DNA from: Escherichia coli
GTDB lineage: Bacteria > Pseudomonadota > Gammaproteobacteria > Enterobacterales > Enterobacteriaceae
Assembly: GCF_001677475.2 (NCBI RefSeq)
Contig: NZ_CP015229.1
Length of the DNA: 64,000 nt
Reading direction: 5' to 3' (one strand)
Below the pieces are notes generated by a model, which saw only the letters and a list, made by a program, of their open reading frames with translations, was not told the DNA's origin and made no database searches. Positions 7,754 to 38,942 of this stretch are shown here, in pieces; the stretch's first letter is position 1, and every line of letters starts with the position of its first letter. A program made the position numbers and the translations under genes.

Positions 7754-7875
7754 GAAACCAGAACATGCACACACAAAAAAACCGCTTGCCATGCCGCAAT
7801 CAGTCAGGTTACATTTCCGCTGCACCTCATAAAACGGGTGCCGGGTTTCGCAGCCTGCTAACTACACAAGCGCAC

Positions 7876-7897
7876 AACCGCGCCAGCGGTTTTTTTG
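7876..7897 (+). terminator. putative intrinsic terminator (accgc-gcca-gcggt stem followed by a T run)
   Basis: GC hairpin followed by tttttttg on the plus strand, within the 7754-8075 non-coding gap. Confidence 0.5.
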
Positions 7898-8075
7898 TGC
7901 GTACTGTATTGCCACGTTTTTTTCGCGCCAGAATTATGGCGGGGCGTACGGGGCCGACTTCGGTCGGGCCGGGTTCTTGTGTAGCCGGTACTGCGAACCT
8001 CGTACGTCTCGCCACCCACAGTTTCGCAGCTCTGGATGGTAAGTTTTCACAACTTACTACACAAGAGGCCACACC

Positions 8076-8378: not shown

Positions 8379-8768
8379 ATGATTGACGCTCATGACTTCA
8401 CAAGATGGGTGCGCACACAGGACACCCGTCTGGCTCCCGTTCTTCAGGGATTATTTGATCTTTACATCCGTGGTCGTGACAACAGAGCACGCACTACAAA
8501 ACCGGAGAATGCGGACACCCTTTATTTCACAGTAGACGACTGCTACCGCGTGGACTTCACACCACACGGGCTGGCGTTGCACTGCCTGACACCACACGGC
8601 GAATCACTGCTGGCGTATTACGACTCCCCGGCCTCCGTATTTGCGGCAATGCTGGCGCATCGCACTGCTGGCGGGTGTGCCTCGCTGAGTGAATACACCG
8701 CTGAATTTAACCGCCTTTCCGCCATCTTCTCGCAGGAGTGGCAGCGCGTGACGGGATACCAGCCATGA
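8379..8768 (+). CDS. hypothetical protein; stop overlaps start of gene A
   Basis: 129-aa ORF; ATGA overlap at 8765-8768. Confidence 0.5.
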   Translation: MIDAHDFTRWVRTQDTRLAPVLQGLFDLYIRGRDNRARTTKPENADTLYFTVDDCYRVDFTPHGLALHCLTPHGESLLAYYDSPASVFAAMLAHRTAGGCASLSEYTAEFNRLSAIFSQEWQRVTGYQP

Positions 8769-11605
8769 GTGAGTTTGCATGGAGCTGGAATGAACCACGG
8801 CCAGCCATTGATCCGGCCAGATTTACGGAGCGCAGGCAGGAAACTGAAACCGACCTGCAACGCGCCATCCGTTACTACCTTGAGGCAGACAAAAGGGCAC
8901 AGGAAGAACAGGAAGCGAAGGAAGAAGCCTTTTTCGCACAATCCACCGTGGGTAAAAAACTCATGGCATCCCTTGAGGAAGCCGGACAGCGTGAAAAGCT
9001 GGCACAGAGCATCATCAGTAAGCGCCGGGCAACAGAACAAGACACGGTAGCCCGTGCCTTTGCCACACTAAAGGCACTACCTGTTTATCTGCGTGAACCA
9101 CTGAGCCGCCACCTCTCTTTCCTGCGCAAAAAACAGGAAGCCGATCGCCGGAAAGGCAAAAAGAGCTGGCAGGCGGAACGCTATGCACGCGGAACCCTGC
9201 GCAAAATATTCGAACGTCTGGACCGCACCGACAGCCGCTGGCTGACACCGGGTTATCGCGCCCTTGCCGGACGCGAACGCCTGGACGATTTGCTTTACCT
9301 GCCGCAGCTCAACAAACACCAGATACAGACGCTGGCCACCATGACAGCGGCGATGTTCAGCAGCACCTTCGAAAAACTCTGCGATGGCTTTGGCGCGACT
9401 GATGGCGAGCTGACCATGGATGTAACGCTGAAGGCGTATCAGATGCTGGCCCGCATGGCGTTACACCTGCACGCCATGCCTCCGCATTATGACGTACTGA
9501 CAACAGACAAAGACCGGAGGAACGAACCAGACACAGAACTGCTGCCGGGCGCAATCCTTCGCCTGACCTGTGCGGAATGGTGGAAACGCAAACTGTGGCT
9601 GTTACGTTGCGAGTGGCGGGAAGAACAACTCCGAGCCGCCTGTCTGGTTTCCAGAAAAACATCGCCCTATCTGAGCCAGGACGCGTTAAGCGAGTTTCGC
9701 GCACAGCGCGAGAAAACACGCGATTTCCTGAAAAGTTTCATGCTGGAAAATGAAGACGGGTTCACGATTGATCTCGAGACGGTGTATTACGCGGGAGTAA
9801 GTAACCCGGTTCACCGTAAGGCAGAAATGATGGCCACCATGAAGGGACTGGAACTTCTGGCCGAAGCCCGTGGCGACAGAGCGGTGTTTCTGACCGTCAC
9901 CTGCCCGTCAAAATACCACGCAACAACGGAGAACGGTCATCCGAACCCCAAATGGAACGGGGCCACCATGCGCGACTCCAGCGATTACCTGGTTAACACG
10001 TTTTTTGCGGCGGTCCGCAAAAAACTGAACCGCGACGGCCTGCGCTGGTATGGCATCCGCACGGTGGAGCCTCACCATGACGGCACTGTGCACTGGCATA
10101 TGATGGTCTTTGCACATCCGGACGAGATTGAAACCATCGTGTCCCACGTCTGCGATATTGCCATTCAGGAGGACCGCCACGAGCTGGGCGATGACATAAC
10201 TCCGCGTTTTAAGGCGGAGTATGTCGACGGCTCAAAAGGCACACCAACCAGCTACATCGCCACCTACATCGGAAAGAACTTGGACAGCCGCGCCGTGGAT
10301 GGCATCGACCCGAAAACGGGCAAGCCACGCGTTGACCACGAAACCGGAAAATCAATGGCCGAGAGCGTGGAGCGCGCCATCGGCTGGGCGCGCCTTCACC
10401 GGGTCCGTCAGTTCCAGTTCTTTGGCATCCCCTCCCGTCAGGTGTGGCGTGAACTGCGCCGCCTTGCCAGCCAGATGGCACGCAATCCGGAAGGCCCGCA
10501 ACGGCTGAAAGATGATGCAATGGATGCGGTACTCGCTGCCGCCGATGCCGGGTGTTTTGCCACCTACATTGAAAAACAGGGTGGCGTGCTTGTTCCACGC
10601 AAGGACTACCTGATTCGCACCGCCTACGACCTCGCAGATGAGCTGAACGATTACGGCGAACAGAGCGTACAGATTTACGGGATCTGGTCACCACTCATCG
10701 GGGAATCCTCCCGTGTGTGCACGCATCCGGATAACTGGAAGTTGGTAAGACGTAAACCAGAACCGGAAGACAACGCCCACGAAAATGGTTTTGACCTTCA
10801 GGGCGGCCCTGCCGCCCCTTGGACTCGTGGCAATAACTGTCCCCGTGTACAGGAAACGGACAATAACGGGACAGAACTGCCGGAAGAACGGCCAGCACCG
10901 TGGCCGCAGCTCCCTGACGGCGTTGAAGTGAACGAATGGATGCGCTCACTGAAACAGCACGAACGCCGGGCGCTGATGCGTTCGCTTCGTGACAAACAGG
11001 CAAAAAACAGCAGTGATGAAATGCAGAGCTGGACACAGAGCCGCAAACAGCAGCGGCCTTTGCCTGATAACCACGAATTACTCGCTAAAGAATGGCGGGA
11101 GTCTGCTGAATCTCTCGGCCTGCATATCGGTGAACAACAGATGCAGCACCTGTTACGGGGCGGCAGCCTGTACGTTGACGGCAGCATCATTGCACCGCAG
11201 GGATTTGAAATTGTACGCAAACCGGATACCCGCCCGGACAGCCGAATCACGCAGCTCTGGCAGCGCCTGAGCCGTAATCATGGCGTAAGCAGCACGGAGA
11301 TCCGCCATAACCCGGTCGCCAGCTATCTGGCACAGCTGGGGGCATCAGACCCTGAAGTCGCCGCACGCCTGGCATCCACACTTCAGCAGGACCAGAACAC
11401 CATGAAAACACCCGTTACCGTGCTTTCTGACATGCTGCGCGCCATCCGCGACGCAGAGCACGCACAGAGAATCAGTGAAACCACTGAACGCGCCCGCCGC
11501 AAAGCAGACCTGCTGCGGGGTGGCCTGACCAGTGGAAACAAAAAACAGACAGAAACGGGACTCATGAATCCCGTAAATGAGCAAAAAACGCGCAGCGATA
11601 TATGA
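8765..11605 (+). CDS. A: replication initiation endonuclease, P2 gpA-like (rolling-circle HUH nickase) with long C-terminal extension
   Basis: HUH-type motif in GTVHWHMMVFAHPD; position after early genes; 946 aa from ATG 8765. Confidence 0.85.
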   Translation: MSEFAWSWNEPRPAIDPARFTERRQETETDLQRAIRYYLEADKRAQEEQEAKEEAFFAQSTVGKKLMASLEEAGQREKLAQSIISKRRATEQDTVARAFATLKALPVYLREPLSRHLSFLRKKQEADRRKGKKSWQAERYARGTLRKIFERLDRTDSRWLTPGYRALAGRERLDDLLYLPQLNKHQIQTLATMTAAMFSSTFEKLCDGFGATDGELTMDVTLKAYQMLARMALHLHAMPPHYDVLTTDKDRRNEPDTELLPGAILRLTCAEWWKRKLWLLRCEWREEQLRAACLVSRKTSPYLSQDALSEFRAQREKTRDFLKSFMLENEDGFTIDLETVYYAGVSNPVHRKAEMMATMKGLELLAEARGDRAVFLTVTCPSKYHATTENGHPNPKWNGATMRDSSDYLVNTFFAAVRKKLNRDGLRWYGIRTVEPHHDGTVHWHMMVFAHPDEIETIVSHVCDIAIQEDRHELGDDITPRFKAEYVDGSKGTPTSYIATYIGKNLDSRAVDGIDPKTGKPRVDHETGKSMAESVERAIGWARLHRVRQFQFFGIPSRQVWRELRRLASQMARNPEGPQRLKDDAMDAVLAAADAGCFATYIEKQGGVLVPRKDYLIRTAYDLADELNDYGEQSVQIYGIWSPLIGESSRVCTHPDNWKLVRRKPEPEDNAHENGFDLQGGPAAPWTRGNNCPRVQETDNNGTELPEERPAPWPQLPDGVEVNEWMRSLKQHERRALMRSLRDKQAKNSSDEMQSWTQSRKQQRPLPDNHELLAKEWRESAESLGLHIGEQQMQHLLRGGSLYVDGSIIAPQGFEIVRKPDTRPDSRITQLWQRLSRNHGVSSTEIRHNPVASYLAQLGASDPEVAARLASTLQQDQNTMKTPVTVLSDMLRAIRDAEHAQRISETTERARRKADLLRGGLTSGNKKQTETGLMNPVNEQKTRSDI

Positions 11606-28367: not shown

Positions 28368-28808
28368 ATGAATTACATATATTCCGCGACTACAAACTCT
28401 TTCTATCCGCTGGAGATGAAAGAGGATTACACTCAAGCTGACTCATGGCCAGATGATGCTGTTGAAGTTGATGAGCAAGTGTATATTGAGTTTTCCGGAT
28501 TACCGCCGAAAGGAAAAATCCGTATCGCTGGAGAAAATGGTTTTCCTGCATGGTCTGAAATTCCACCACCAACACATGAGGAACAAATTGCTGCAGCCGA
28601 ATTGGAGAAGCAGCAATTGATTAATCAGGCCAACGATTATATGAACAGTAAACAATGGCCTGGTAAAGCGGCTATTGGTCGTCTGAAAGGTGAGGAACTG
28701 GCGCAATATAATTTGTGGCTGGATTATCTGGACGCACTGGAACTGGTTGATACCTCCAGTGCTCCAGATATTGAATGGCCTACGCCTCCGGCAGTTCAGG
28801 CCAGATGA
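28368..28808 (+). CDS. G: tail fibre assembly chaperone (P2 gpG-like)
   Basis: 146 aa directly after H. Confidence 0.8.
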   Translation: MNYIYSATTNSFYPLEMKEDYTQADSWPDDAVEVDEQVYIEFSGLPPKGKIRIAGENGFPAWSEIPPPTHEEQIAAAELEKQQLINQANDYMNSKQWPGKAAIGRLKGEELAQYNLWLDYLDALELVDTSSAPDIEWPTPPAVQAR

Positions 28809-29376
28809 CATCCGGCGCGGTGCTGGTATCTGTTGCCGTCACCGCGTCAATGTAATCCAGCACAGCGTTAAGTCTGGTTGTTTCTGCCTGCGTCAGTTTA
28901 CGTCCGGCCTGTAATTTCAGCTGAATCAGACTAATGGAAGCCATTGCTGCATCAATCAGTGACTGGCGCTGTGCTTCTGCCGTTTCTACTGCGGCACCGT
29001 GTTGTGCCTCAGTATCTGTCACCCATTTCTCACCATCCCATTTATCATATGGCGTTAACGGTGAAAGCGTGACATAACCGTTTTTGATGGCACCGATATA
29101 ATCCACTGTAACAGCAGCACCATTTTCGATTGAGTAAACAGTCTCATTGCGATGGTCTTCTTCATGGCTCCATCCCTTACCTGTAAATACTGCCACTCTT
29201 CCCGGAATGTTTTTGCCAGGGTCAATTCCAGTGGAACAGGCGGGCATACTTACGCCAGTATTAATATATTCATCAGACCAGCCCGTATACTCAGATGTTT
29301 CAGCATCATAATAAAAACAACGCATATCGCCCGGCACTGTAGCCAGTCCATTTTCATCAAAAATTGGGGTCATCAT
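28780..29376 (-). CDS. alternative tail fibre assembly chaperone (tfa'), convergent with G
   Basis: 198-aa minus-strand ORF; C-terminus ...IWPELPEA parallels G C-terminus ...IEWPTPPA. Confidence 0.75.
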   Translation of the reverse strand: MMTPIFDENGLATVPGDMRCFYYDAETSEYTGWSDEYINTGVSMPACSTGIDPGKNIPGRVAVFTGKGWSHEEDHRNETVYSIENGAAVTVDYIGAIKNGYVTLSPLTPYDKWDGEKWVTDTEAQHGAAVETAEAQRQSLIDAAMASISLIQLKLQAGRKLTQAETTRLNAVLDYIDAVTATDTSTAPDVIWPELPEA

Positions 29377-29832
29377 TTAGCCCTCACCAGAAAGTTAAAT
29401 GCAATATTTCGCGGTCTGACGGCAACAAAATTCACACCATCACCCACAGAGTTACTGGTGAAATTAAATCGTGAAAATCCTGGCTGATTTCCGGCGATAC
29501 CATCATGAAAATTAATTGCGTGGCCCGCACCATCGCCTATATTCCCGGCAAACTGAGAAAAGTTTGTAGCTGCCTGCCAGCTTAATAATTCGCGACCACC
29601 GTCTACACCTCGCCCGTCATCCCAGATACGAATGAAATCACCGCGGGCTTCAGGTAATACCAGCGAAGGAAACACTTTCGCCAGCACAGGGTAATCAGTG
29701 GCAGAAAATTTCGCCCCGTTGAACTTCAAAAACACCATACCGGACCAGCTGTCGATTACAGTATTTGGCATTGCCGCGGAGGGCCAGAAGAACGGAACGC
29801 CAATAGCTGGAGTACCTTCTCCCAAACCAACG
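29373..29832 (-). CDS. alternative tail-fibre C-terminal variable segment (promoterless; fuses to H after inversion)
   Basis: Minus-strand ORF reading ...NVGLGEGTPAI... from the hix-like site, paralleling H ...[11 protein letters not shown]. Confidence 0.65.
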
Positions 29833-29840
29833 TTTAAGAA
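29815..29840. repeat. hix/gix-like crossover site (inverted copy)
   Basis: Reverse complement carries ttggtttgggagaag. Confidence 0.6.
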
Positions 29841-29897
29841 AATGCAGAGATTACGGCTAACTGGCATCATCCCCGGTTTTTATTCAGGGGATCCATC

Positions 29898-30497
29898 ATG
29901 CTTATTGGCTATGTCCGCGTATCAACAAATGACCAGAATACAGAATTGCAGCGTAACGCGCTGGAGTGCGCAGGATGTGAACTGATTTTTGAAGATAAAA
30001 TCAGCGGAACGAAATCAGCCAGACCGGGATTGAAAAAACTACTCAGAACGCTATCAGAAGGAGATACGCTGGTTGTCTGGAAGCTGGACAGACTGGGCAG
30101 AAGTATGAAACACCTGATCACGCTTATTGAGGAATTGCGGGAAAAAGGGGTTAATTTCCGTAGTCTGACGGACAGCATCGACACATCAACACCCATGGGG
30201 CGTTTCTTTTTTCACGTCATGGGGGCTTTAGCCGAAATGGAACGTGAATTAATTGTAGAGCGTACACTGGCCGGACTGGCAGCAGCACGCGCACAAGGAC
30301 GCATTGGCGGACGTCGCCCGAAGTTGACAAAAGAACAACACGAGCAAATAGCGAGGCTGATTAAAAACGGTCATGACAGGAAACAACTGGCGATCATTTA
30401 CGACATCGGCATATCGACGATTTATCGCTATCACCCTGCAGGCGATATACAGGCTGAAGAAACAACCAGGCAGACTCAGGAAAATGAAAACCGCTAA
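29898..30497 (+). CDS. pin: serine DNA invertase, Hin/Gin/Pin/Cin family
   Basis: 199 aa; N-terminal GYVRVSTNDQ catalytic-serine motif and C-terminal HTH; adjacent to invertible tail-fibre segment. Confidence 0.9.
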   Translation: MLIGYVRVSTNDQNTELQRNALECAGCELIFEDKISGTKSARPGLKKLLRTLSEGDTLVVWKLDRLGRSMKHLITLIEELREKGVNFRSLTDSIDTSTPMGRFFFHVMGALAEMERELIVERTLAGLAAARAQGRIGGRRPKLTKEQHEQIARLIKNGHDRKQLAIIYDIGISTIYRYHPAGDIQAEETTRQTQENENR

Positions 30498-30523: not shown

Positions 30524-31018
30524 TCAAAACAGCCCTTTAACGGAGCTGGCCGCGCTGTTAAGGGATGATGTGACCTTATCTTTGAAGCCGGACAGCATAT
30601 CACTGAATGATGAGGATTGCAGGCGCTCCCGCAAATCCTCATCACAGCGTTCAAGAGTCAGTGAAAATTCTATCTTTTTCGCCTTACCGTAGCGATCAAA
30701 CTCGGAACGGGTCGTATTCGTTTCAGTCAGTACATACATGCCGTAAATTTGCCCGACACCATCAATCAGAGGCCAGGGGCGTCCTGTATATGCCTGCGTG
30801 GTCAGCAACGAAAGCGACACTTCGCCACCTGTAATTTCAGGATAAAGCACGCCGGAAAGCACAATGCGATCATCACCTGCACCGATATACTGCCAGCTTG
30901 CTGAACGGTTAACGCGTTCATTTTTCACATGCCGCCAGCTTTTGTTTTGCTGTAACTGCTGATGCGGCAGTGTGCGCAGCTCAAAAACAAACATGCCGTA
31001 GATCATCATCATGACCAT
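30524..31018 (-). CDS. U: tail protein, P2 gpU-like
   Basis: 164 aa; last gene of the minus-strand FI-FII-E-T-U block. Confidence 0.7.
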   Translation of the reverse strand: MVMMMIYGMFVFELRTLPHQQLQQNKSWRHVKNERVNRSASWQYIGAGDDRIVLSGVLYPEITGGEVSLSLLTTQAYTGRPWPLIDGVGQIYGMYVLTETNTTRSEFDRYGKAKKIEFSLTLERCDEDLRERLQSSSFSDMLSGFKDKVTSSLNSAASSVKGLF

Positions 31019-31024
31019 GACTCC

Positions 31025-33868
31025 TCAATCTTTATCGTAAAAACTGCCACGTCCGGCACGGGCGCGCCGTTCCATCTCTGCCCTGACCATTTCACCGACC
31101 AGTTTCGCCAGTTCGCGGGGATTCTGCGTAACAACGTTATGCAGATGAACATGAATTTCACCGCCAAATCCGGAGACAGCAGGCTCCCGATTACGGGAAG
31201 CTGCAGGAACTGATGCCACTGGCGATCGTATGGCCTCCGCCACCGGGCGGGAGCTGGCCGCAACAACAGGGACCAGCGCCGGAGGCAGCGGAGCCGGGAC
31301 TACGGGTGTGATATTAATTGCGGGGGCAGGCTTACTGACCTGCGCAATCTTCCGCTCCTGCCACTCCCCACGAACAGCCAGTGCGCGGGGCAGGTTCTTA
31401 AAGACAATATCGCCGGGGCCAATGCGTTTTTTCGTCTCATCAACCAGCTTACCTGTGTTATCAGCAATTTTGCTGAGTCTGCGTAGCGTCCCGGTATTGC
31501 TGTCTGTGAGCGGTTTGTTGTCTTTGGGTTTATCACCTCCGGTGCCATTGCCATTTTCCACAGGCTTCGGCGGATTGATTTTCGCAAGGTCCCCCTGAAG
31601 CAAGGCAACCTTGTCCTGAAGAATGGCCGCACGCTGTGCGTCTTCGATTTTCTTGCGCGCCTTTTCCGCTTCATCCGGAAGGACGCCAAGTTTTTCAAGT
31701 ATCCACGCCAGCGTATCCAGTAGCATTTTTGCAGGTGTCAGAACAAGCTGTAACGCACCGCCAAGAACGTTACCGAATATCTCGCCAGCACTGGTACATT
31801 TATCCAGCGTTTCCTTGCTGGACTCCATCGGTGACAGCAGCGATTTAAACCAGTTAAACACCTGGCTGATCCCGCTTCCGATTGCGTCAAAAACAGGACC
31901 AAACCGTTCAAAGGTTTCGCGCAACGGGGTCAGCCTTTCCATAATCCCGCTGAACACCCCGGCATAAAACGCCTTGATGGGTTCCCAGTATTTCCAGATG
32001 AGAACCGCCGCAGCCACAAACGCGGCAACAATCAATCCGACCGGACTGAACAGCGCCCCGATAGCGCCACCCAGCAACGAGATGGAACCTGTTACCATTC
32101 CCCATAGTGCTGGCAGCACCCTGACGACATTCATTGATCCGGTCAGGAGAGAAAAACCAAGACGTAACGTGGCCAGTTTCCCGTGAAGCACGCCAATAAC
32201 CAGCGACAACGAGCCAATCGTTGCAGTCATTGCCAGCAACGCACCGCCTGCTATCAGTAGCTGGCGCGTCAGTGCCGGATGGGCCTGCGCCAGCGCCGTC
32301 ACCCTTGATACCACCCGCGTGAGCCACTGCGTGACAGAACGCAGCGGGCCGTCAATCAGATCTGCAATGCGGATGCGCAACCCTTCCCATGCACTGCCGA
32401 GTGATTTCAGATCGCCATCAAGGTTGTTGGCCATAACCTTTGCCGTGCGTTCAGCCTCACCGCGTGCGCCTTCAAGTTCTTTTCTCAGTTTGGGTAAGGA
32501 ACCGTCACCTGCCGCATCAACGAGGGCCATAAACGATGTGAAAGCCTCTTCCCCGGCGATGTCCTTAAAGAAGGATACCCGGTCAACTTCCCCGTATTTG
32601 CGGGTGGCTTTATAAAGGTCGGCCAGCACATCCTCCATCGGGCGCATTTTGCCGTTCGCGTCAGAAACTGCCACACCAAGCTCTTTCAGCGCCTCTGCTG
32701 CTGCCTTTGGCGGTGATGCCAGACGAGCCAGGCTGGCACGCATTGCCGTCCCGGCATCACTCCCTCTGATACCCATATTCGCCAGCACGCCCGCCATCGC
32801 TGCGGCCTGCTCCAGCGATATTCCCAGCTTACCCGCCACCGGACCTGCATATTTCATGGTTTCGCCCAGTGCGCGAAGGTCAGTGTTGGTACGGGTAAAC
32901 GCTGCGGTGAGTGTGTCACCAACCCGGTCCATCTGGTCAGCAGAAAGGCCGAACTGCGTCAGGATATTTGAGCCAATATCCGCCGTCTCGCCGAGATCCA
33001 TACCGCCAGCCGTTGCCATGCTCAACACGCCGGGAAGCGCAGCCTGAATGGCCTGCGGTGTGAAGCCAGCCATTGCAAGAAATGCCTGTCCACTGGCGGC
33101 ATCGCCTGCGGTGAACTGCGTTTCAGAGCCAAGTTTTAACGCCTGCTCACGCAGCGCCTTAAACTGTGGGCTGTTCTGGTCGATTCGCGTCAGTGCCTGA
33201 ACGCGGGACATCTCTTTCCCGAACCCGATCGCAGGCTGCAAAAAACGCCCGGCAGCATAGCCGCCAGCCGCTGCCGCACCAATTGCCAGCGCACCACCTG
33301 TTTTCAGTTTTCCAGCAGTTTCCTGCGCGCGCGAATACCGCTCACGCGCCCGCGTTACACGCGCAAGCGTCTGCCGTTCGCGTTCAAGCTGGTTGTTGTA
33401 CTGTTCGGTGCGTCTGATGGCCTGCTGGATGGTGTTATCGCTGCCTGTCAGGGAAATGCCGTGGCGTTTCAGCTCTCCGCCAAGCTCCCGCATTTTCTGA
33501 ATTTCCCGTGTGCGCGATTCATTCAGGCGTTCAAGCCGGGTGCTTAACTGCTGCATCAGCTTTTGTTGTTTTTCGCTGAGCACTGTACCCGTGCGTTGTA
33601 ACTGATTAAGGGCGTTAAGCTGGCGTCGTGCTTTCACGATGCCCGCATCCGCTTTACTGACAGCGTCACGGGCGCGCTCAAACGAACGCGCCTGACGCTC
33701 GAGATTTTTGATCGCCCCCTGCGTTCGCTGGATGGAGTCACCAAACTGCCCCATCAGGCGGCGGGCGTTTTCGGCAGGCCGGGTCAGCCTGTCAACGGCG
33801 CTGAAAGCGACCCGGATATCAAGAGTCTTCATTGTCTGCATTCCCGCTGCGAAGTGCCGCCCGCTCAC
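31025..33868 (-). CDS. T: tail tape measure protein, P2 gpT-like
   Basis: 947 aa, helical/Gly-Ala-rich; synteny. Confidence 0.85.
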   Translation of the reverse strand: MSGRHFAAGMQTMKTLDIRVAFSAVDRLTRPAENARRLMGQFGDSIQRTQGAIKNLERQARSFERARDAVSKADAGIVKARRQLNALNQLQRTGTVLSEKQQKLMQQLSTRLERLNESRTREIQKMRELGGELKRHGISLTGSDNTIQQAIRRTEQYNNQLERERQTLARVTRARERYSRAQETAGKLKTGGALAIGAAAAGGYAAGRFLQPAIGFGKEMSRVQALTRIDQNSPQFKALREQALKLGSETQFTAGDAASGQAFLAMAGFTPQAIQAALPGVLSMATAGGMDLGETADIGSNILTQFGLSADQMDRVGDTLTAAFTRTNTDLRALGETMKYAGPVAGKLGISLEQAAAMAGVLANMGIRGSDAGTAMRASLARLASPPKAAAEALKELGVAVSDANGKMRPMEDVLADLYKATRKYGEVDRVSFFKDIAGEEAFTSFMALVDAAGDGSLPKLRKELEGARGEAERTAKVMANNLDGDLKSLGSAWEGLRIRIADLIDGPLRSVTQWLTRVVSRVTALAQAHPALTRQLLIAGGALLAMTATIGSLSLVIGVLHGKLATLRLGFSLLTGSMNVVRVLPALWGMVTGSISLLGGAIGALFSPVGLIVAAFVAAAVLIWKYWEPIKAFYAGVFSGIMERLTPLRETFERFGPVFDAIGSGISQVFNWFKSLLSPMESSKETLDKCTSAGEIFGNVLGGALQLVLTPAKMLLDTLAWILEKLGVLPDEAEKARKKIEDAQRAAILQDKVALLQGDLAKINPPKPVENGNGTGGDKPKDNKPLTDSNTGTLRRLSKIADNTGKLVDETKKRIGPGDIVFKNLPRALAVRGEWQERKIAQVSKPAPAINITPVVPAPLPPALVPVVAASSRPVAEAIRSPVASVPAASRNREPAVSGFGGEIHVHLHNVVTQNPRELAKLVGEMVRAEMERRARAGRGSFYDKD

Positions 33869-34357
33869 GCCAGCTAACCACTTCGCCGGGCGTCATCATG
33901 AAGATTTCGGCGGGCGACCAGTTAAAAATGGCGGCGATATCTGCCACCAGATCTTCGATGTGCTCAAAGCACACCAGGGTAATTACGCTGCCGTCTCCTG
34001 CACGCTCTTCGCGCCAGAGTCTGGCTCGCTCATAAAATTTACAGCCACAGCGCACAACTGAATAAAATCGCGTGACGACATTTTTTTAATCATCACTTCA
34101 TCCAGTCGTGGCGAGGTCACGCGAGGCAACAGCGTAAACATGGTATCCGCTTTCAGATTCAGCACATCAGACAGCGACAGACCACGCAGGGATCCAGCCT
34201 GCTCAATAGCCCCGGTGATCTCCACATACGTGATTTTTTCGCCACCACGCTCAATTGGTCGGGTCAGTTTTACGCCACGTTCGACAGCCATATCCTCACC
34301 TGCCGTCACATCATCCGCCACGGTGTTATTCCGGGTTTCAGTATCGATGTCTTTCAT
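33819..34357 (-). CDS. tail assembly chaperone E+E' (predicted -1 programmed frameshift product)
   Basis: A7 slippery run (plus-strand ttttttt at 34081-34087) inside E; the -1 frame stays open to 33819 and overlaps the T start. Confidence 0.55.
33983..34357 (-). CDS. E: tail assembly chaperone, P2 gpE-like
   Basis: 124-aa ORF between tube and tape measure genes. Confidence 0.7.
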   Translation of the reverse strand: MKDIDTETRNNTVADDVTAGEDMAVERGVKLTRPIERGGEKITYVEITGAIEQAGSLRGLSLSDVLNLKADTMFTLLPRVTSPRLDEVMIKKMSSRDFIQLCAVAVNFMSEPDSGAKSVQETAA

Positions 34358-34412
34358 CAGTTGTCTCCTTTTCAGTCAGAGGCGACGCACTGCGCCGCCT
34401 GCATATTACTTA

Positions 34413-34925
34413 TCAGCCAAGCCCAAGCGCGGAACGGATACGGTCAGGCACAATGTCCTTGCCGTCCTTCCGGTAGATGTGGTTCAACAGGTCGATTTCC
34501 CACAGCGGGCGATCGTTAACGCTCAGCTTGTAGTAGGTGTTTTTGACAGCGTAAGTGTGTGATGTGGCTTCGCCCTGTTTGGCTTCCCCCATATCAATTT
34601 CCGTCACACGCCCACGCATCTCGATTTCATACAGATCGCTTTCTGCATCGGTGTAGTATTCACCCGCAAAACGCAGCAGCGTGCCGTCAATCGTGCCGCC
34701 ATATTTAAGGAACAGCGCACGAACAGCTCCCCCCATGACAAAACTCGCATCAAGCGCGGAGTCGTCCAGACCGAGATCAATACTTACCGCCCCCATCATG
34801 CCACCACCACGATAGCTGTCGGTTTTGCGCGTCAGTTTGGGCGGCGTGACGGATGTCACTTTACCCACTTCGTTTTCACCATCCACAAACAACGTAAAAA
34901 AGCGAAGATGTTTTGGTACAGCCAT
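34413..34925 (-). CDS. FII: tail tube protein, P2 gpFII-like
   Basis: 170 aa; synteny. Confidence 0.85.
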   Translation of the reverse strand: MAVPKHLRFFTLFVDGENEVGKVTSVTPPKLTRKTDSYRGGGMMGAVSIDLGLDDSALDASFVMGGAVRALFLKYGGTIDGTLLRFAGEYYTDAESDLYEIEMRGRVTEIDMGEAKQGEATSHTYAVKNTYYKLSVNDRPLWEIDLLNHIYRKDGKDIVPDRIRSALGLG

Positions 34926-36109
34926 CAGGCACCTCCCAGCACCGCAAATGCGGGACCAAAGAATTCATCAGTAAACGTCTGGTAAAGCTCCATGTCTTCC
35001 AGCGGGGGAACAGGCGTATATTTGTAGCGAATACGCACACGTCCCTGACGTAAATTCGTGGTGCCGTTATCCACCACGTCATACCAGCACTCCGCGCCAA
35101 TCAGTTTCCCGGCAGTAACCAGCGAATCCAGTTTTGCCCTGATGGCACTGATAACATCCTTCACGTTCGCAGGCGTCAGTGGACTGTCGATGGTTTCAAA
35201 CTGCGCTTCCGCAATTGAATCAGCCAGCACCTGTGCGGTTCGGGTATACACCTCAAAGATGTAGGCGTTCGTTTCCGGTGTGCGGTTGCCCCAGAAGCGG
35301 AACCCGTTGCGACGAATAATGGTCGTGATTTCTTTGTTGTTGAGGCTGTTGGCATCGCTGTCTTCGGCCTGCAACGACCAGAACACATGCCTCGACATCC
35401 CCAGCACATTTTTAACCGGAACGTTGGACAGTGATTTGTGCCATCCCTGCTCATGGTCAATGTACGCACGAAGGCCGCACGCATAGGCAGGCGCGGGGAA
35501 CGTTTCGTTTTTGCCACTTTTCGGGTTGTAGGCGATGAAGTCTGGCCATAAGAGCATCACCTCACGTTCGTTGAATTTCTGGCGGTAGGTAATTGCCTCG
35601 GCCATCGTGTTACAGCCATGACATGAGGCATACACAAACGCGCGCAGTTTACCCGCAATCACGCACAGGGATTTTGTCACCGCCTCCGTGTCCAGCTCCG
35701 GCGCGGCCAGAATACGCGGACGGTATCCGATGCTTTCATCCTGCTCTGCAACAAGCAGCGCATACATCCCCGTATAGCTGCCGTCAGATTCAGAACCACC
35801 GATAACCAGTTGATCCTGCGTTTTTCCGTCTTCTTCTTTGTGTTCAGCCACGCGAACGACGATCACCTTTGTGCTCACCTGGTCTGCGATGGCCTTAAGC
35901 GCACGATAAAGCGTCCCCGTTGTTCCGCATTTTCCCAGCACGTCATTGACGCGGGTCAGCAGTGTGGGCTTGTTCAGCGGGAACAGCTCCGCGTCCGCAT
36001 CATCTGCCGTTGCCACGATACCGATAACACTGGAATCAACATCATTAATCGCTGTTACCAGGTCGGTACTTTCCGTAACACGGGCACCATGAAAACGAGT
36101 TTCACTCAT
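34925..36109 (-). CDS. FI: contractile tail sheath protein, P2 gpFI-like
   Basis: 394 aa; motifs GWHKSLSNV, IRRNGFRFWGNRT, YTRTAQV, YTPVPPLE match recalled P2 FI. Confidence 0.9.
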   Translation of the reverse strand: MSETRFHGARVTESTDLVTAINDVDSSVIGIVATADDADAELFPLNKPTLLTRVNDVLGKCGTTGTLYRALKAIADQVSTKVIVVRVAEHKEEDGKTQDQLVIGGSESDGSYTGMYALLVAEQDESIGYRPRILAAPELDTEAVTKSLCVIAGKLRAFVYASCHGCNTMAEAITYRQKFNEREVMLLWPDFIAYNPKSGKNETFPAPAYACGLRAYIDHEQGWHKSLSNVPVKNVLGMSRHVFWSLQAEDSDANSLNNKEITTIIRRNGFRFWGNRTPETNAYIFEVYTRTAQVLADSIAEAQFETIDSPLTPANVKDVISAIRAKLDSLVTAGKLIGAECWYDVVDNGTTNLRQGRVRIRYKYTPVPPLEDMELYQTFTDEFFGPAFAVLGGA

Positions 36110-36266
36110 AGCTTCAGCCCCTTGTATCCGTTAAATGATTCGGCAACAATCATCACCCACCACGCGCGTAATCTCACCCCTGCGCCGTTCTCCCGCCACG
36201 GCGACAACAAAAAGCAGTAATCCCCTCCGCACGCACATGCGACCATGCCGCACAGGGAGGGAACAG

Positions 36267-37376
36267 ATGACCGACACCACCATGCAATTGCTCAGTCAGG
36301 GCACAGACCCCGTGAAAATGCCGGATTTTGATATTCTCGCGGAGGGTAAAACGCTGTCAGGCGTGGCAGAGCGCCTGATGAGCCTGTCACTGACCGACAA
36401 CCGGGGATTTGAGGCGGACCAGCTCACCATCACGCTGGATGATGCGGATGGTCAGTTGCAGCTACCGCCACGGGGCGTGCGCCTGACGGTTCTCATTGGC
36501 TGGAAAGGAGAACCGCTGACAGAAAAAGGCACTTACATTGTTGATGAAATCGCTCACGAAGGACCGCCGGACAGGCTGACTGTTTCAGCCAGAAGCGCAG
36601 ATTTTCGGGATGAATTTAACGTTAAACGTGAGGTGTCCTGGCATGATGTGACCGTTGAGCGTGTGGTATCCGCCATCGCTCATCGGTACGGTCTGAAACC
36701 GCAAATCAGCGAAATGCTGATGGATATCGAAATCGACCACGCCGACCAGACCGAAGAAAGCGACATGTCCTTCCTTACGCGCATGGCGGAAATGCTGGGC
36801 GCAATCACCACGGTAAAAAGCGGCAATCTGTTATTCATCATGCCAGGTGGTGGCGTGAACGCACAGGGCCAGCCGTTGCCATCGTTCGCCATCACACGCA
36901 GCAGCGGCGATCGCCATCAGTTCCGCATTGCTGACCGCGAGGCGTATACGGGGGTGCGCGCCTACTGGCTTGATCTTAACTATGGGAAAAAGAAAAAAGT
37001 CAGCGTGAAACGCCGCAAACCACCCAAACCGAAAAAGGAGAAAAGCAGCAGCCGCGAAGGTGACTATATGGAAGGTGCGGAAGGCAACGTGTTTGTGTTA
37101 CGCAAGACTTATCAGAACGAGCAGGCAGCAAGACGCGCAGCGGCGGCAAAGTGGCAGCAGCTACAACGCGGAGCCGCATCATTTTCCATCACGCTGGCAC
37201 GTGGACGCGCAGAACTCTACCCCGAAATGCATGGCACAGTAACAGGATTTAAAAGCGAGATTGATAATCAGGACTGGATTATTGCAAAAGCCGAGCACAC
37301 CATTGATAACAGCGGCTTTACCACGCAGCTTGAGCTTGAGGCAAAAATCCCGGAATGGATAGCAGAAACAGAGTGA
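36267..37376 (+). CDS. D: tail protein / late control protein, P2 gpD-like
   Basis: 369 aa; MSLSLTDNRGFEADQLTITLDD..., DHADQTEESDMSFLTR, GFTTQLELE match recalled P2 gpD. Confidence 0.9.
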   Translation: MTDTTMQLLSQGTDPVKMPDFDILAEGKTLSGVAERLMSLSLTDNRGFEADQLTITLDDADGQLQLPPRGVRLTVLIGWKGEPLTEKGTYIVDEIAHEGPPDRLTVSARSADFRDEFNVKREVSWHDVTVERVVSAIAHRYGLKPQISEMLMDIEIDHADQTEESDMSFLTRMAEMLGAITTVKSGNLLFIMPGGGVNAQGQPLPSFAITRSSGDRHQFRIADREAYTGVRAYWLDLNYGKKKKVSVKRRKPPKPKKEKSSSREGDYMEGAEGNVFVLRKTYQNEQAARRAAAAKWQQLQRGAASFSITLARGRAELYPEMHGTVTGFKSEIDNQDWIIAKAEHTIDNSGFTTQLELEAKIPEWIAETE

Positions 37377-37502: not shown

Positions 37503-38261
37503 ATGTTCAGTTTGTTTTCGTTAACTGCCGGAGCAAATGTGCGCTGGCATGATTTACCTGGTCAGGGTATTCCTGTTGTTTTTATTCATGGACTTGGCTG
37601 TTCCTCTTCTTATGAATATCCACGGGTTGTTGCAGATCCTGTATTTGGTGGACAACGAGCGATATTGATAGATCTCCCTGGATATGGATTCAGTGATAAG
37701 CCTAAAGGATTCGATTACAGCATATCCCATCAAGCTAAGGTTGTTATTGAAGTAGTAGAAACCTTAAATCTCTCACAGTTCCATATTTATGGTCACAGTA
37801 TGGGGGGAAGTATTGCGATTGAAGTAGCCAGACAACTACATGAGAGAACAAGAAAGCTTGTGGTTTCTGAGCCTAATTTTCACTCTGGTGGAGGTACCTA
37901 TAGCCGTAAGATAATAGAGAAGCCAGAAGCAGAGTTTATTTCGCATATATATAATGAATTACTGGAGTGTGAAACATCCCCATGGAAAGGTGAACTCCAG
38001 AATGCAGCCCCATGGGCAATATGGCGAGGAGCCAAAAGTCTGGTTGATGGAACCACTCCATCATGGCGAGATATATTCCTTAATCTGTCCTGTTCACGAA
38101 CACTAATTTTTGGCGAACAATCATTGCCAGATAATGATTTCCAGTATATAAAAGAATCAGGAATATCTGTTGCAATAGTGCCAAACGCCGGACACTCCAT
38201 GTCATGGGAAAACCCATCAGCACTGGCCGAAATTTTACACACAGAATTTTATAAAGAGTAA
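37503..38261 (+). CDS. alpha/beta-hydrolase fold protein (esterase/lipase-type), prophage cargo
   Basis: 252 aa; oxyanion HGLG, nucleophile elbow GHSMGG, C-terminal His (NAGHS); AT-rich island between D and ogr. Confidence 0.7.
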   Translation: MFSLFSLTAGANVRWHDLPGQGIPVVFIHGLGCSSSYEYPRVVADPVFGGQRAILIDLPGYGFSDKPKGFDYSISHQAKVVIEVVETLNLSQFHIYGHSMGGSIAIEVARQLHERTRKLVVSEPNFHSGGGTYSRKIIEKPEAEFISHIYNELLECETSPWKGELQNAAPWAIWRGAKSLVDGTTPSWRDIFLNLSCSRTLIFGEQSLPDNDFQYIKESGISVAIVPNAGHSMSWENPSALAEILHTEFYKE

Positions 38262-38621
38262 AATTGCTCATATATAAATGTTGTTCCATCAGTATCATAT
38301 TATCAAAGGGCAGGAGGTAAATTTATCTTCTGCCATTTCACTCAAATCAGGCGATTTGATAGCACGCATTTTATGAGATGCTTGAAACTTATAAATATAT
38401 AAGAACGTCTTGTTATCAAAATATATAAGCACAGAAAGCAAACACTTTCCCATAATTACTTTGTTAATTTTTTGCCTGATAATAAATGGCATAATAAACA
38501 GTATCAGAGAGTATTTTTATTAATAATTAAACACACATTCCTCAATCTGACATGACTGTTAGTTGGCATATTTACAAATACAATTTAAAATAACGACAGC
38601 AAAACGTTAAGGGAGGTCGCT

Positions 38622-38882
38622 ATGTTCCGTTGTCCGCTTTGTGGCGCATCTGCCCGTATCCGCACCAGTCGTCCAGAAAATGATTCAAACACCGTACGGC
38701 AAAAGTATTACCAATGTAACAACCTGGAATGCGGCGTATGCTTCTCAACACTGGAAGCTTTCCATAAATTCACATCGAAACACGCCTCCGGCGCTCACTC
38801 TTCAGAAAGTATCCCGTGGCATGAACTGCCAGCTTCCCACAGAGGAAACAATCAGATGAGTTTGCCCTTACCTCAAAATTAA
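38622..38882 (+). CDS. ogr: late gene transcription activator, Ogr/Delta zinc-finger family
   Basis: MFRCPLCGASARIRTSR...YYQCNNLECGVCF resembles recalled P2 Ogr (CPLC...C..C). Confidence 0.85.
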   Translation: MFRCPLCGASARIRTSRPENDSNTVRQKYYQCNNLECGVCFSTLEAFHKFTSKHASGAHSSESIPWHELPASHRGNNQMSLPLPQN

Positions 38883-38942
38883 CAGGCAGAATTGCCGGAG
38901 TAACAAAAAAGCGATAGATTACGCGCGGGTGCCTTTCGGCTG

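What the first reader, a model, noticed from the sequence alone, without database searches (positions are those of the whole stretch)
33819..34357. Predicted -1 programmed ribosomal frameshift in tail chaperone gene E (E+E')
An A7 run (plus-strand ttttttt at 34081-34087) lies inside E, and the -1 frame remains open for about 88 further codons, overlapping the tape-measure start. This is the conserved tail-assembly-chaperone frameshift arrangement (P2 E/E', lambda G/GT).
Basis: partly seen in the sequence, partly recalled or inferred. Interest (0 to 1): 0.3.

Follow-up and report, generated by a model that had tools for sequence, protein, structure and literature searches.

The report
Tail chaperone frameshift, slip site misplaced

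Summary
The sequence facts are right. On the minus strand, E (34357..33983, 124 aa) holds an A7 run at 34087..34081. The -1 frame is open from there for 88 codons to TGA 33821..33819 and overlaps the tape-measure start (ATG 33832) by 14 nt. The -1 product carries the Pfam Phage_P2_GpE domain, and the E+E' fusion matches P2 E+E' (BLASTP 1e-28). The prophage is a Xuanwuvirus (P88-like, P2 family).

The slip-site assignment is not supported:
- P2's annotated site (GGT TTT TTG) aligns with window GTA AAT TTT ATG, a canonical A_AAT_TTT heptamer at 34040..34034.
- All 88 related loci have a heptamer at that position.
- In 11 loci a -1-frame stop abuts it.
- In the P88 clade, which also has the A7 run, a -1-frame TGA lies between the A7 run and the heptamer.
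- Nucleotide diversity shows E-frame-only selection from A7 to the heptamer, then -1-frame selection.

RefSeq annotates E and a separate 51-aa "GpE family" gene, with no frameshift. No stimulatory RNA structure was found, as reported for P2.

Verdict: a new member of a known kind; low interest.

The parts
33983..34357 (-). Gene E: tail assembly chaperone, 124 aa, including the TAA stop at 33985..33983
   Evidence: ORF and translation. PHROG 103 'tail protein' 1e-36. Pfam Phage_TAC_7 at 20.6 bits, below the cut-off of 25. RefSeq annotates it as 'tail protein' WP_000651572.1.
34365..34370 (-). Shine-Dalgarno AAGGAG, 7 nt upstream of the E start codon
   Evidence: Read from the sequence. Duplex with the anti-SD sequence is -8.7 kcal/mol.
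34034..34040 (-). Proposed slippery heptamer A_AAT_TTT. E-frame codons are GTA AAT TTT = V106 N107 F108, followed by ATG.
   Evidence: It aligns with the -1 frameshift site annotated in the P2 record, GGT TTT TTG. All 88 relatives have a heptamer in one of two registers here. It is unchanged in 71 of 71 window-clade sequences. The shift in codon-position diversity falls here.
33819..34034 (-). E' extension read in the -1 frame after the slip: 71 codons (YERARLW...NEDS) plus TGA. E+E' is 179 aa, about 19.9 kDa.
   Evidence: Translation. Pfam Phage_P2_GpE 2.9e-12. BLASTP of the fusion against P2 E+E' gives 1e-28. AlphaFold model of the fusion has pLDDT 84.3.
33983..34033 (-). Stretch coding in both frames: the E C-terminus and the start of E'
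   Evidence: No variable site among 46 window-clade haplotypes. Across Xuanwuvirus-like loci the most variable codon position is E position 2, which is the E' wobble position.
34081..34087 (-). A7 run (codons K91, K92 and the first base of M93).
   Evidence: Phasing is AAA_AAA_A. P88-clade relatives have a -1-frame stop downstream of it. No stable structure is predicted downstream (z +0.79).
34086..34088 (-). TAA stop in the -1 frame, which sets the upstream limit for any productive -1 shift
33819..33974 (-). Separate 51-aa 'GpE family phage tail protein' CDS as annotated in RefSeq (GTG start), with no frameshift annotated
   Evidence: WP_000333503.1. No Shine-Dalgarno sequence: duplex -3.2 kcal/mol. 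The GTG is not conserved in Klebsiella relatives.
31025..33832 (-). Gene T: tape measure protein. Its ATG at 33832 overlaps the end of E' by 14 nt.
   Evidence: Pfam PhageMin_Tail 2.3e-58. RefSeq start.
34413..34925 (-). Gene FII: tail tube protein, immediately upstream of E
   Evidence: Pfam Phage_tube 2.1e-45.

Best explanation
E and E' are the Xuanwuvirus (P88-like) counterparts of phage P2 genes E and E+E'. Most ribosomes that start at ATG 34357 terminate at TAA 33985..33983 and make the 124-aa chaperone E. A minority slip back one base at A_AAU_UUU (34040..34034). In that slip, tRNA-Asn moves from AAU to AAA in the P site and tRNA-Phe moves from UUU to UUU in the A site. A P-site-only slip of tRNA-Phe on U_UUU would give the same protein. 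Those ribosomes then read YERARLW... in the -1 frame to TGA 33821..33819 and make the 179-aa fusion E+E'. By analogy with lambda G/GT, the shared E part binds the tape measure protein and the E' domain recruits tail tube or sheath subunits. Neither protein ends up in the virion. Shown here: the ORF geometry, the homology, conservation of the site, where selection on the -1 frame begins, and the lack of an independent start signal. Inferred: that the fusion is actually made, its frequency, and the roles of the two domains.
For: Homology: the -1 ORF holds Pfam Phage_P2_GpE (46.3 bits, cut-off 23), and the fusion aligns with P2 E+E' along its whole length (33% identity, E 1e-28). Site homology: the P2 record annotates the -1 shift at TTTTTTG (GGT TTT TTG; Lynch 2010 PMC3091744), and in the protein alignment V-G-F-L of P2 equals V-N-F-M of the window. 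Comparative data from 88 loci: 37 have only X_XXT_TTY, 28 have both registers, 23 have only T_TTT_TTN, and none lacks both. In L044 and the L074 group (11 loci) the -1-frame stop abuts TTT TTT, so the shift must occur there. Selection: in 33 Xuanwuvirus-like haplotypes, diversity at E codon positions 1/2/3 is 0.11/0.09/0.38 between the A7 run and the heptamer, 0.07/0.27/0.17 from the heptamer to the E stop, and 0.03/0.15/0.05 after it. The change-point lies 0 to +6 codons from the heptamer. Other clades show the same flip. No independent start: both candidate GTG codons lack a Shine-Dalgarno sequence (+0.3 and -3.2 kcal/mol, against -8.7 for E). The motif is slip-prone in E. coli: A_AAU_UUU gave 0.07 / 0.36 / 11.4 % with no, IS911 or IS3 stimulators, which with stimulators is higher than P2's U_UUU_UUG at 0.12 / 0.25 / 0.77 % (Sharma 2014 PMC4066793 Table S3). 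Viability: Citrobacter phage PhiSM has an identical E/E' overlap sequence and is a plaque-forming temperate phage (PMC6456863). Structure: the AlphaFold model of the heptamer fusion is confident (pLDDT 84.3, pTM 0.74), with one helix (residues 95-111) running across the junction at 108/109.
Against: There is no experimental evidence for this phage. No conserved downstream stem-loop or pseudoknot was found: RNAalifold gave 0 pairs, the single-sequence fold has z -1.29, and there is no Rfam match. I saw no Shine-Dalgarno-like sequence in the 20 bases upstream of the heptamer. In reporter assays A_AAU_UUU without stimulators is near background (0.07 %), so the real efficiency is unknown. P2 shares this gap, since no hairpin is reported there either. 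The P2-type heptamer T_TTT_TTG is broken here (TTG changed to ATG), so the site is homologous in position but not identical in sequence. In this clade the -1 frame is open from the A7 run, so a minor contribution from A7 cannot be excluded.
Confidence: 0.85

Rival explanations
1. One reading: the -1 shift takes place on the A7 run (34087..34081). It would give E(1-92) + NVVTRFYSVVRCGCKF + YERARLW..., also 179 aa.
For: In this clade the -1 frame opens exactly at the A7 run. The run is present in 73 of 73 window-clade viral contigs. tRNA-Lys is known to be slip-prone, and A_AAA gives 0.26 % with a pseudoknot.
Against: The phasing is AAA_AAA_A, so the heptamer is U_AAA_AAA; the P-site tRNA would land on UAA. 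The A_AAA tetramer is the weakest of the six active tetramers. No structure is predicted downstream (z +0.79). The P88 clade keeps the same A7 run but has a -1-frame TGA between it and the heptamer. More distant relatives have A-runs of only 2-5 there. Between the A7 run and the heptamer only the E frame is conserved (position-3 diversity 0.38). Window versus L023 shows 5 substitutions, all silent in E and all changing the -1 frame. This fusion would replace E residues 93-108, which include the invariant D97 and F108 and form a confidently modelled helix.
Confidence: 0.05
2. E' is a separate small gene started at its own GTG (33974, 51 aa, as in RefSeq; or 34055, 78 aa), with no frameshift.
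For: Public annotation calls it that way in hundreds of genomes. The PHROG 1756 profile starts at the 34055 GTG.
Against: Neither GTG has a Shine-Dalgarno sequence. The 33974 GTG is GTT in Klebsiella relatives. Selection on the -1 frame begins at the heptamer, 60 nt upstream of that GTG. A slippery heptamer is conserved at this position in 88 of 88 loci. From my memory of Christie et al. 2002 (paper not held), P2 E' is made only as an extension of E.
Confidence: 0.05
3. The fusion arises at the nucleic-acid level: RNA polymerase slippage (A7 to A8 in the mRNA) or genomic A7/A8 variation at the homopolymer.
For: Public assemblies hold A8 alleles that encode exactly the A7-type fusion as one ORF. 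This is a 15-member protein cluster on several sequence backgrounds, and 11 of 11 contigs read have A8. A7 and U7 runs are linked to transcriptional slippage in Sharma 2014.
Against: None of 73 IMG/VR contigs has A8. Three of the 11 A8 contigs carry other homopolymer indels that split the tube gene, as read errors would. The selection argument against the A7 ribosomal model applies here as well. From my own knowledge, 7 A's is short for efficient slippage by E. coli RNA polymerase.
Confidence: 0.03
4. The -1 ORF is a decaying remnant and no E' product is needed.
For: None specific. Many prophages are defective.
Against: There is strong purifying selection in the E' frame. The sequence is present in 1373 of 5426 complete E. 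coli genomes. It is identical in the plaque-forming phage PhiSM.
Confidence: 0.02

Closest known systems
Phage P2 genes E and E+E' (Christie et al. 2002; record NC_001895 annotates the -1 frameshift after TTTTTTG)
   Same: Same gene order (FI-FII-E/E'-T-U). Homologous proteins (E 1e-28 for the fusion; GpE Pfam domain). The -1 extension has no start signal and overlaps the start of T. The slip site is at the homologous codons near the end of the shared helix. No downstream hairpin is detectable.
   Different: E is 124 aa against 91 aa (a disordered N-terminal extension of about 25 aa and a longer C-terminus after the site). The dual-coding overlap is 51 nt, against about 21 nt in P2. The heptamer is A_AAT_TTT, one codon upstream in register; the P2-type T_TTT_TTG is destroyed by TTG to ATG. 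The whole FI-U block is inverted relative to gene D, as in phage P88.
Phage lambda G / GT tail assembly chaperones (Levin 1993; Xu, Hendrix and Duda 2004, 2013, 2014; reviewed in PMC5009743)
   Same: Same position between the major tail gene and the tape measure gene. Same logic: a -1 frameshift sets a fixed ratio of short and long chaperone.
P88-clade Xuanwuvirus and Klebsiella Reipivirus E/E' loci (this analysis)
   Same: Closest relatives; same architecture and same slip position.
   Different: The P88 clade has both overlapping heptamers (A_AAT_TTT_TTG) and a -1-frame stop after the A7 run. The Reipivirus clade has C_CCT_TTC only. The window clade has A_AAT_TTT only.

Membership tests
P2-type E / E+E' tail assembly chaperone pair | Lies between the tail tube gene and the tape measure gene | tested here: met
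   FII (Phage_tube, 2.1e-45) is upstream and T (PhageMin_Tail, 2.3e-58) is downstream.
P2-type E / E+E' tail assembly chaperone pair | The upstream ORF is homologous to P2 gpE | tested here: met
   BLASTP of the fusion against P2 E+E' gives 1e-28 and covers the E part. PHROG 103 scores 1e-36. Pfam Phage_TAC_7 alone is below threshold (20.6 against 25 bits), and there is no NCBIfam match.
P2-type E / E+E' tail assembly chaperone pair | The -1 frame ORF carries the GpE (E') domain and overlaps the start of T | tested here: met
   Pfam PF06528 at 46.3 bits, above the cut-off of 23. The overlap with T is 14 nt.
P2-type E / E+E' tail assembly chaperone pair | A slippery heptamer in the E frame at the conserved position | tested here: met
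   A_AAT_TTT at 34040..34034 aligns with P2's T_TTT_TTG, shifted by one codon in register. All 88 relatives have a heptamer here.
P2-type E / E+E' tail assembly chaperone pair | E' has no translation start of its own | tested here: met
   Neither GTG has a Shine-Dalgarno sequence. -1-frame constraint starts upstream of GTG 33974.
P2-type E / E+E' tail assembly chaperone pair | The fusion protein is made at a set fraction (about 10 % in P2) and is essential | not testable with these tools
   Only indirect support: phage PhiSM, with the identical sequence, forms plaques.
Lambda G/GT-like tail assembly chaperones (functional class) | Tail chaperone fold | tested here: inconclusive
A-run slippery sites (dnaX / IS type A_AAA_AAR) | X_XXZ_ZZN phasing of the run in the zero frame | tested here: not met
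   E-frame codons are ATT AAA AAA ATG, so the heptamer is U_AAA_AAA.
A-run slippery sites (dnaX / IS type A_AAA_AAR) | The site and an open -1 frame are conserved in relatives | tested here: not met
   The P88 clade has the A7 run but a TGA in the -1 frame downstream of it. Distant relatives lack the run.
A-run slippery sites (dnaX / IS type A_AAA_AAR) | A downstream stimulatory structure or an upstream Shine-Dalgarno-like element | tested here: not met
   The fold of the 90 nt downstream has z +0.79. I saw no Shine-Dalgarno-like sequence upstream.

The most novel reading that the evidence does not exclude
Two clades of the P2 family, this E. coli/Citrobacter Xuanwuvirus clade and Klebsiella Reipivirus, have lost the canonical T_TTT_TTG heptamer. 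They rely instead on a heptamer one codon upstream (A_AAT_TTT, C_CCT_TTC). This would mean the slip site can move between two overlapping registers. In addition, the conserved A7 run in this clade could act as a second, minor slippage point (ribosomal, transcriptional, or an A7/A8 mutational switch) that yields an alternative fusion or switches tail assembly off.
Probability: 0.06. Interest if true: 0.4.

Novelty: new member of a known kind. Interest (0 to 1): 0.15.

Why it matters
The practical value is for annotation. RefSeq and phage records for this very common prophage (1373 of 5426 complete E. coli genomes) list E and a separate 51- or 78-aa "GpE family" protein, and none of the records I inspected (an E. 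coli RefSeq genome, phages P88, Chuche and Shae_phiSM) annotates the 179-aa frameshift product. A smaller point is that the family gives a natural series of slip sites at one position: T_TTT_TTG, A_AAT_TTT_TTG, A_AAT_TTT, C_CCT_TTC. None has a recognisable stimulatory structure. That series could help explain why P2-type frameshifting is reported as efficient although the heptamers are weak in reporter assays. None of this changes current understanding of tail assembly.

Tried and rejected
- Downstream RNA stimulator: RNAalifold on 15 diverse relatives gave no consensus pairs. Single-sequence folds were not better than shuffles (z -1.29 after the heptamer, +0.79 after the A7 run). Local hairpins seen in the window (GCCAG-ACU-CUGGC) are not kept in P88 by my reading.
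- Rfam: no family at the locus, only chance-level hits to osmY and SNORD82.
- NCBIfam: no match for E or E'.
- Christie et al. 2002 could not be read because it is not held. P2 facts come from the GenBank record, from Lynch 2010, from Atkins 2016, and in part from my memory of the abstract.
- A literature search for "Xuanwuvirus" found nothing on the frameshift.
- I first suspected that the opposite orientation of the FI-U block relative to D was a rearrangement. Phage P88 has the same layout, so it is normal for the genus.
- I did not model the A7-type fusion. No alignment exists for its out-of-frame segment, so the comparison would not be fair.
Full report
**1. What is there**

On the minus strand the window carries a P2-family tail gene block:

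| Gene | Coordinates | Evidence |
|---|---|---|
| FI (sheath) | 36109..34925 | Pfam sheath domains |
| FII (tube) | 34925..34413 | Pfam Phage_tube |
| E-like ORF, 124 aa | 34357..33983 | |
| T (tape measure) | RefSeq-type start ATG 33832, ends 31025 | |
| U | 31018..30524 | Pfam Phage_P2_GpU |

The E-like ORF has a strong Shine-Dalgarno sequence, AAGGAG at 34370..34365.

The A7 run is at 34087..34081. In the E frame it reads ATT AAA AAA ATG (I90 K91 K92 M93). The -1 frame has TAA at 34088..34086 and is then open for 88 codons to TGA 33821..33819. It overlaps the T start by 14 nt.

The motif alone carries no weight. A7 occurs 27 times in the window against 22.6 +/- 5.9 expected, and AAATTTT occurs 20 times against 19.9 expected.

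**2. Identity of the element**

- The locus is 99.5 % identical to Xuanwuvirus P884B11, 99.0 % to Citrobacter phage Shae_phiSM and about 86 % to phage P88.
- It occurs in 1373 of 5426 complete E. coli genomes.
- The prophage lies next to ihfA and pheT.
- The -1 ORF matches Pfam Phage_P2_GpE (2.9e-12, above threshold) and PHROG 1756. E matches PHROG 103 and, below threshold, Phage_TAC_7.
- Public records annotate E and a separate 51-aa "GpE family phage tail protein" starting at GTG 33974, with no frameshift. The exact-sequence look-up finds the 124-, 51- and 78-aa forms in hundreds of contigs, but not the heptamer-type 179-aa fusion.

**3. Where the shift happens**

The P2 record annotates E (91 aa), E+E' (142 aa) and the -1 site at GGT TTT TTG. 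Lynch 2010 states the same. In the alignment of fused proteins, P2 V-V-G-F-L equals window A-V-N-F-M. The homologous window codons are GTA AAT TTT ATG (34042..34031). They contain a canonical X_XXY_YYZ heptamer, A_AAT_TTT (34040..34034), one codon upstream in register of P2's T_TTT_TTG. The P2-type heptamer itself is broken here by TTG to ATG.

I collected 80 related viral contigs plus phage records and examined this position:

| Heptamer content at the site | Loci |
|---|---|
| T_TTT_TTN only | 23 |
| Both registers | 28 |
| X_XXT_TTY only | 37 |
| Neither | 0 |

- The 37 loci with X_XXT_TTY only are the window clade (A_AAT_TTT, 20 loci) and the Klebsiella Reipivirus clade (C_CCT_TTC, 17 loci).
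- In L044 and the L074 group (11 loci) a -1-frame stop directly abuts TTT TTT, so the shift can only be there.
- In the P88 clade the A7 run is also present (I-K-K-M), but a -1-frame TGA lies between it and the heptamer. A shift at the A7 run would terminate after a few codons.
- Outside Xuanwuvirus-like loci the longest A-run in the 60 nt upstream is 2 to 5.

**4. Selection test**

E codon position 3 is E' position 1, and E position 2 is the E' wobble position. Nucleotide diversity in 33 Xuanwuvirus-like haplotypes:

| Segment | E pos 1 | E pos 2 | E pos 3 |
|---|---|---|---|
| Upstream of the A7 run | 0.10 | 0.04 | 0.20 |
| A7 run to heptamer | 0.11 | 0.09 | 0.38 |
| Heptamer to E stop | 0.07 | 0.27 | 0.17 |
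| After E stop | 0.03 | 0.15 | 0.05 |

- The switch from E-frame to E'-frame constraint therefore lies at the heptamer, not at the A7 run. The per-codon table places the change-point 0 to +6 codons from the heptamer.
- Window versus L023, both with the ATG variant and a -1 frame open from the A7 run: 5 substitutions between the A7 run and the heptamer. None changes E, and all five change the -1 frame.
- Within the window clade (71 sequences, 46 haplotypes), the heptamer context is invariant and the 48 nt from heptamer to E stop has no variable site.
- The same flip is seen in the other clades, including Reipivirus.

**5. Rival readings**

- Independent initiation of E' is unlikely. The two GTG candidates have no Shine-Dalgarno sequence (+0.3 and -3.2 kcal/mol, against -8.7 for E). 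The 33974 GTG is not conserved. -1-frame constraint starts upstream of it.
- The A7 run is in AAA_AAA_A phasing, which gives U_AAA_AAA. The A_AAA tetramer is the weakest active tetramer in E. coli (0.13 % alone, 0.26 % with a pseudoknot). No structure follows it.
- An A7-type fusion would replace E residues 93-108. These include the invariant D97 and F108 and, in the AlphaFold model of the fusion, form a confident helix (95-111) running through the junction (pLDDT 84.3, pTM 0.74).

**6. Mechanism and its gaps**

A_AAU_UUU belongs to the R_RR.U_UU.Y class that Sharma et al. found frameshift-prone. Its measured rates were 0.07 / 0.36 / 11.4 % without, with IS911 and with IS3 stimulators. For U_UUU_UUG they were 0.12 / 0.25 / 0.77 %.

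I found no conserved stimulator. This matches what is reported for P2. Efficiency in the native context is therefore unknown. For P2 it is reported as two- to three-fold that of lambda.

A phage with the identical overlap sequence, PhiSM, forms plaques. The ATG variant is therefore compatible with tail assembly.

**7. Side finding**

The exact look-up found the A7-type fusion as a real called protein. All 11 contigs I read carry A8 instead of A7. Three also have other homopolymer indels that split the tube gene, which points to read errors. None of 73 IMG/VR contigs has A8. I regard these as errors or rare inactivating mutations, not as evidence for recoding at the A7 run.

**8. Verdict**

The P2-type E/E+E' frameshift is present by strong homology and comparative evidence (confidence 0.85, not experimentally shown). 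The slip site is A_AAT_TTT at 34040..34034, not the A7 run. This is a new, unannotated member of a well-known kind, and interest is low.

Noticed in passing
window 34081-34087; loci L091-L101: Public assemblies (Logan, JGI, NCBI) contain alleles with A8 instead of A7, which fuse E and E' into one 179-aa ORF. All 11 contigs read have A8, on several sequence backgrounds. Three also carry other homopolymer indels. None of 73 IMG/VR contigs has A8. These are probably read errors, though some may be real inactivating mutations.
   Followed up: partly
window 37503-38261 (+): A 252-aa alpha/beta hydrolase ORF (Pfam Abhydrolase_1, 1.9e-20) with GC of 0.36-0.41, against 0.52-0.60 in the neighbouring tail genes. 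It sits between gene D and the ogr/hok end of the prophage. It looks like a low-GC cargo gene, and phage P88 has no such gene at that place.
   Followed up: partly
window 7822-8019 (+): Rfam matches above threshold to isrK (7822-7896) and C4 antisense RNA (7932-8019), upstream of the gene A-type replication gene (8738-11605). This is an antisense-RNA immunity element of the kind I recall from P1/P7, here in a P2-family prophage.
   Followed up: no
window 28368-30497: A DNA invertase gene (29898-30497, +) lies next to oppositely oriented tail-fibre assembly cassettes (28368-28808 +; 28780-29376 - and 29373-29870 -). This is probably an invertible host-range segment.
   Followed up: no
window 30524-37376: The FI-FII-E-T-U block is on the minus strand, while gene D (36135-37376) and the head and baseplate genes are on the plus strand. 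This is unlike P2 but the same as in phage P88, so it is the normal Xuanwuvirus layout rather than a rearrangement.
   Followed up: yes
window 38300-43600: The prophage end, with ogr-like and hok/gef genes and an STnc540 match (39427-39579), abuts the host genes ihfA, pheT, pheS and the Phe leader (43420-43544). The flank is 96-98 % identical to E. coli genomes.
   Followed up: partly
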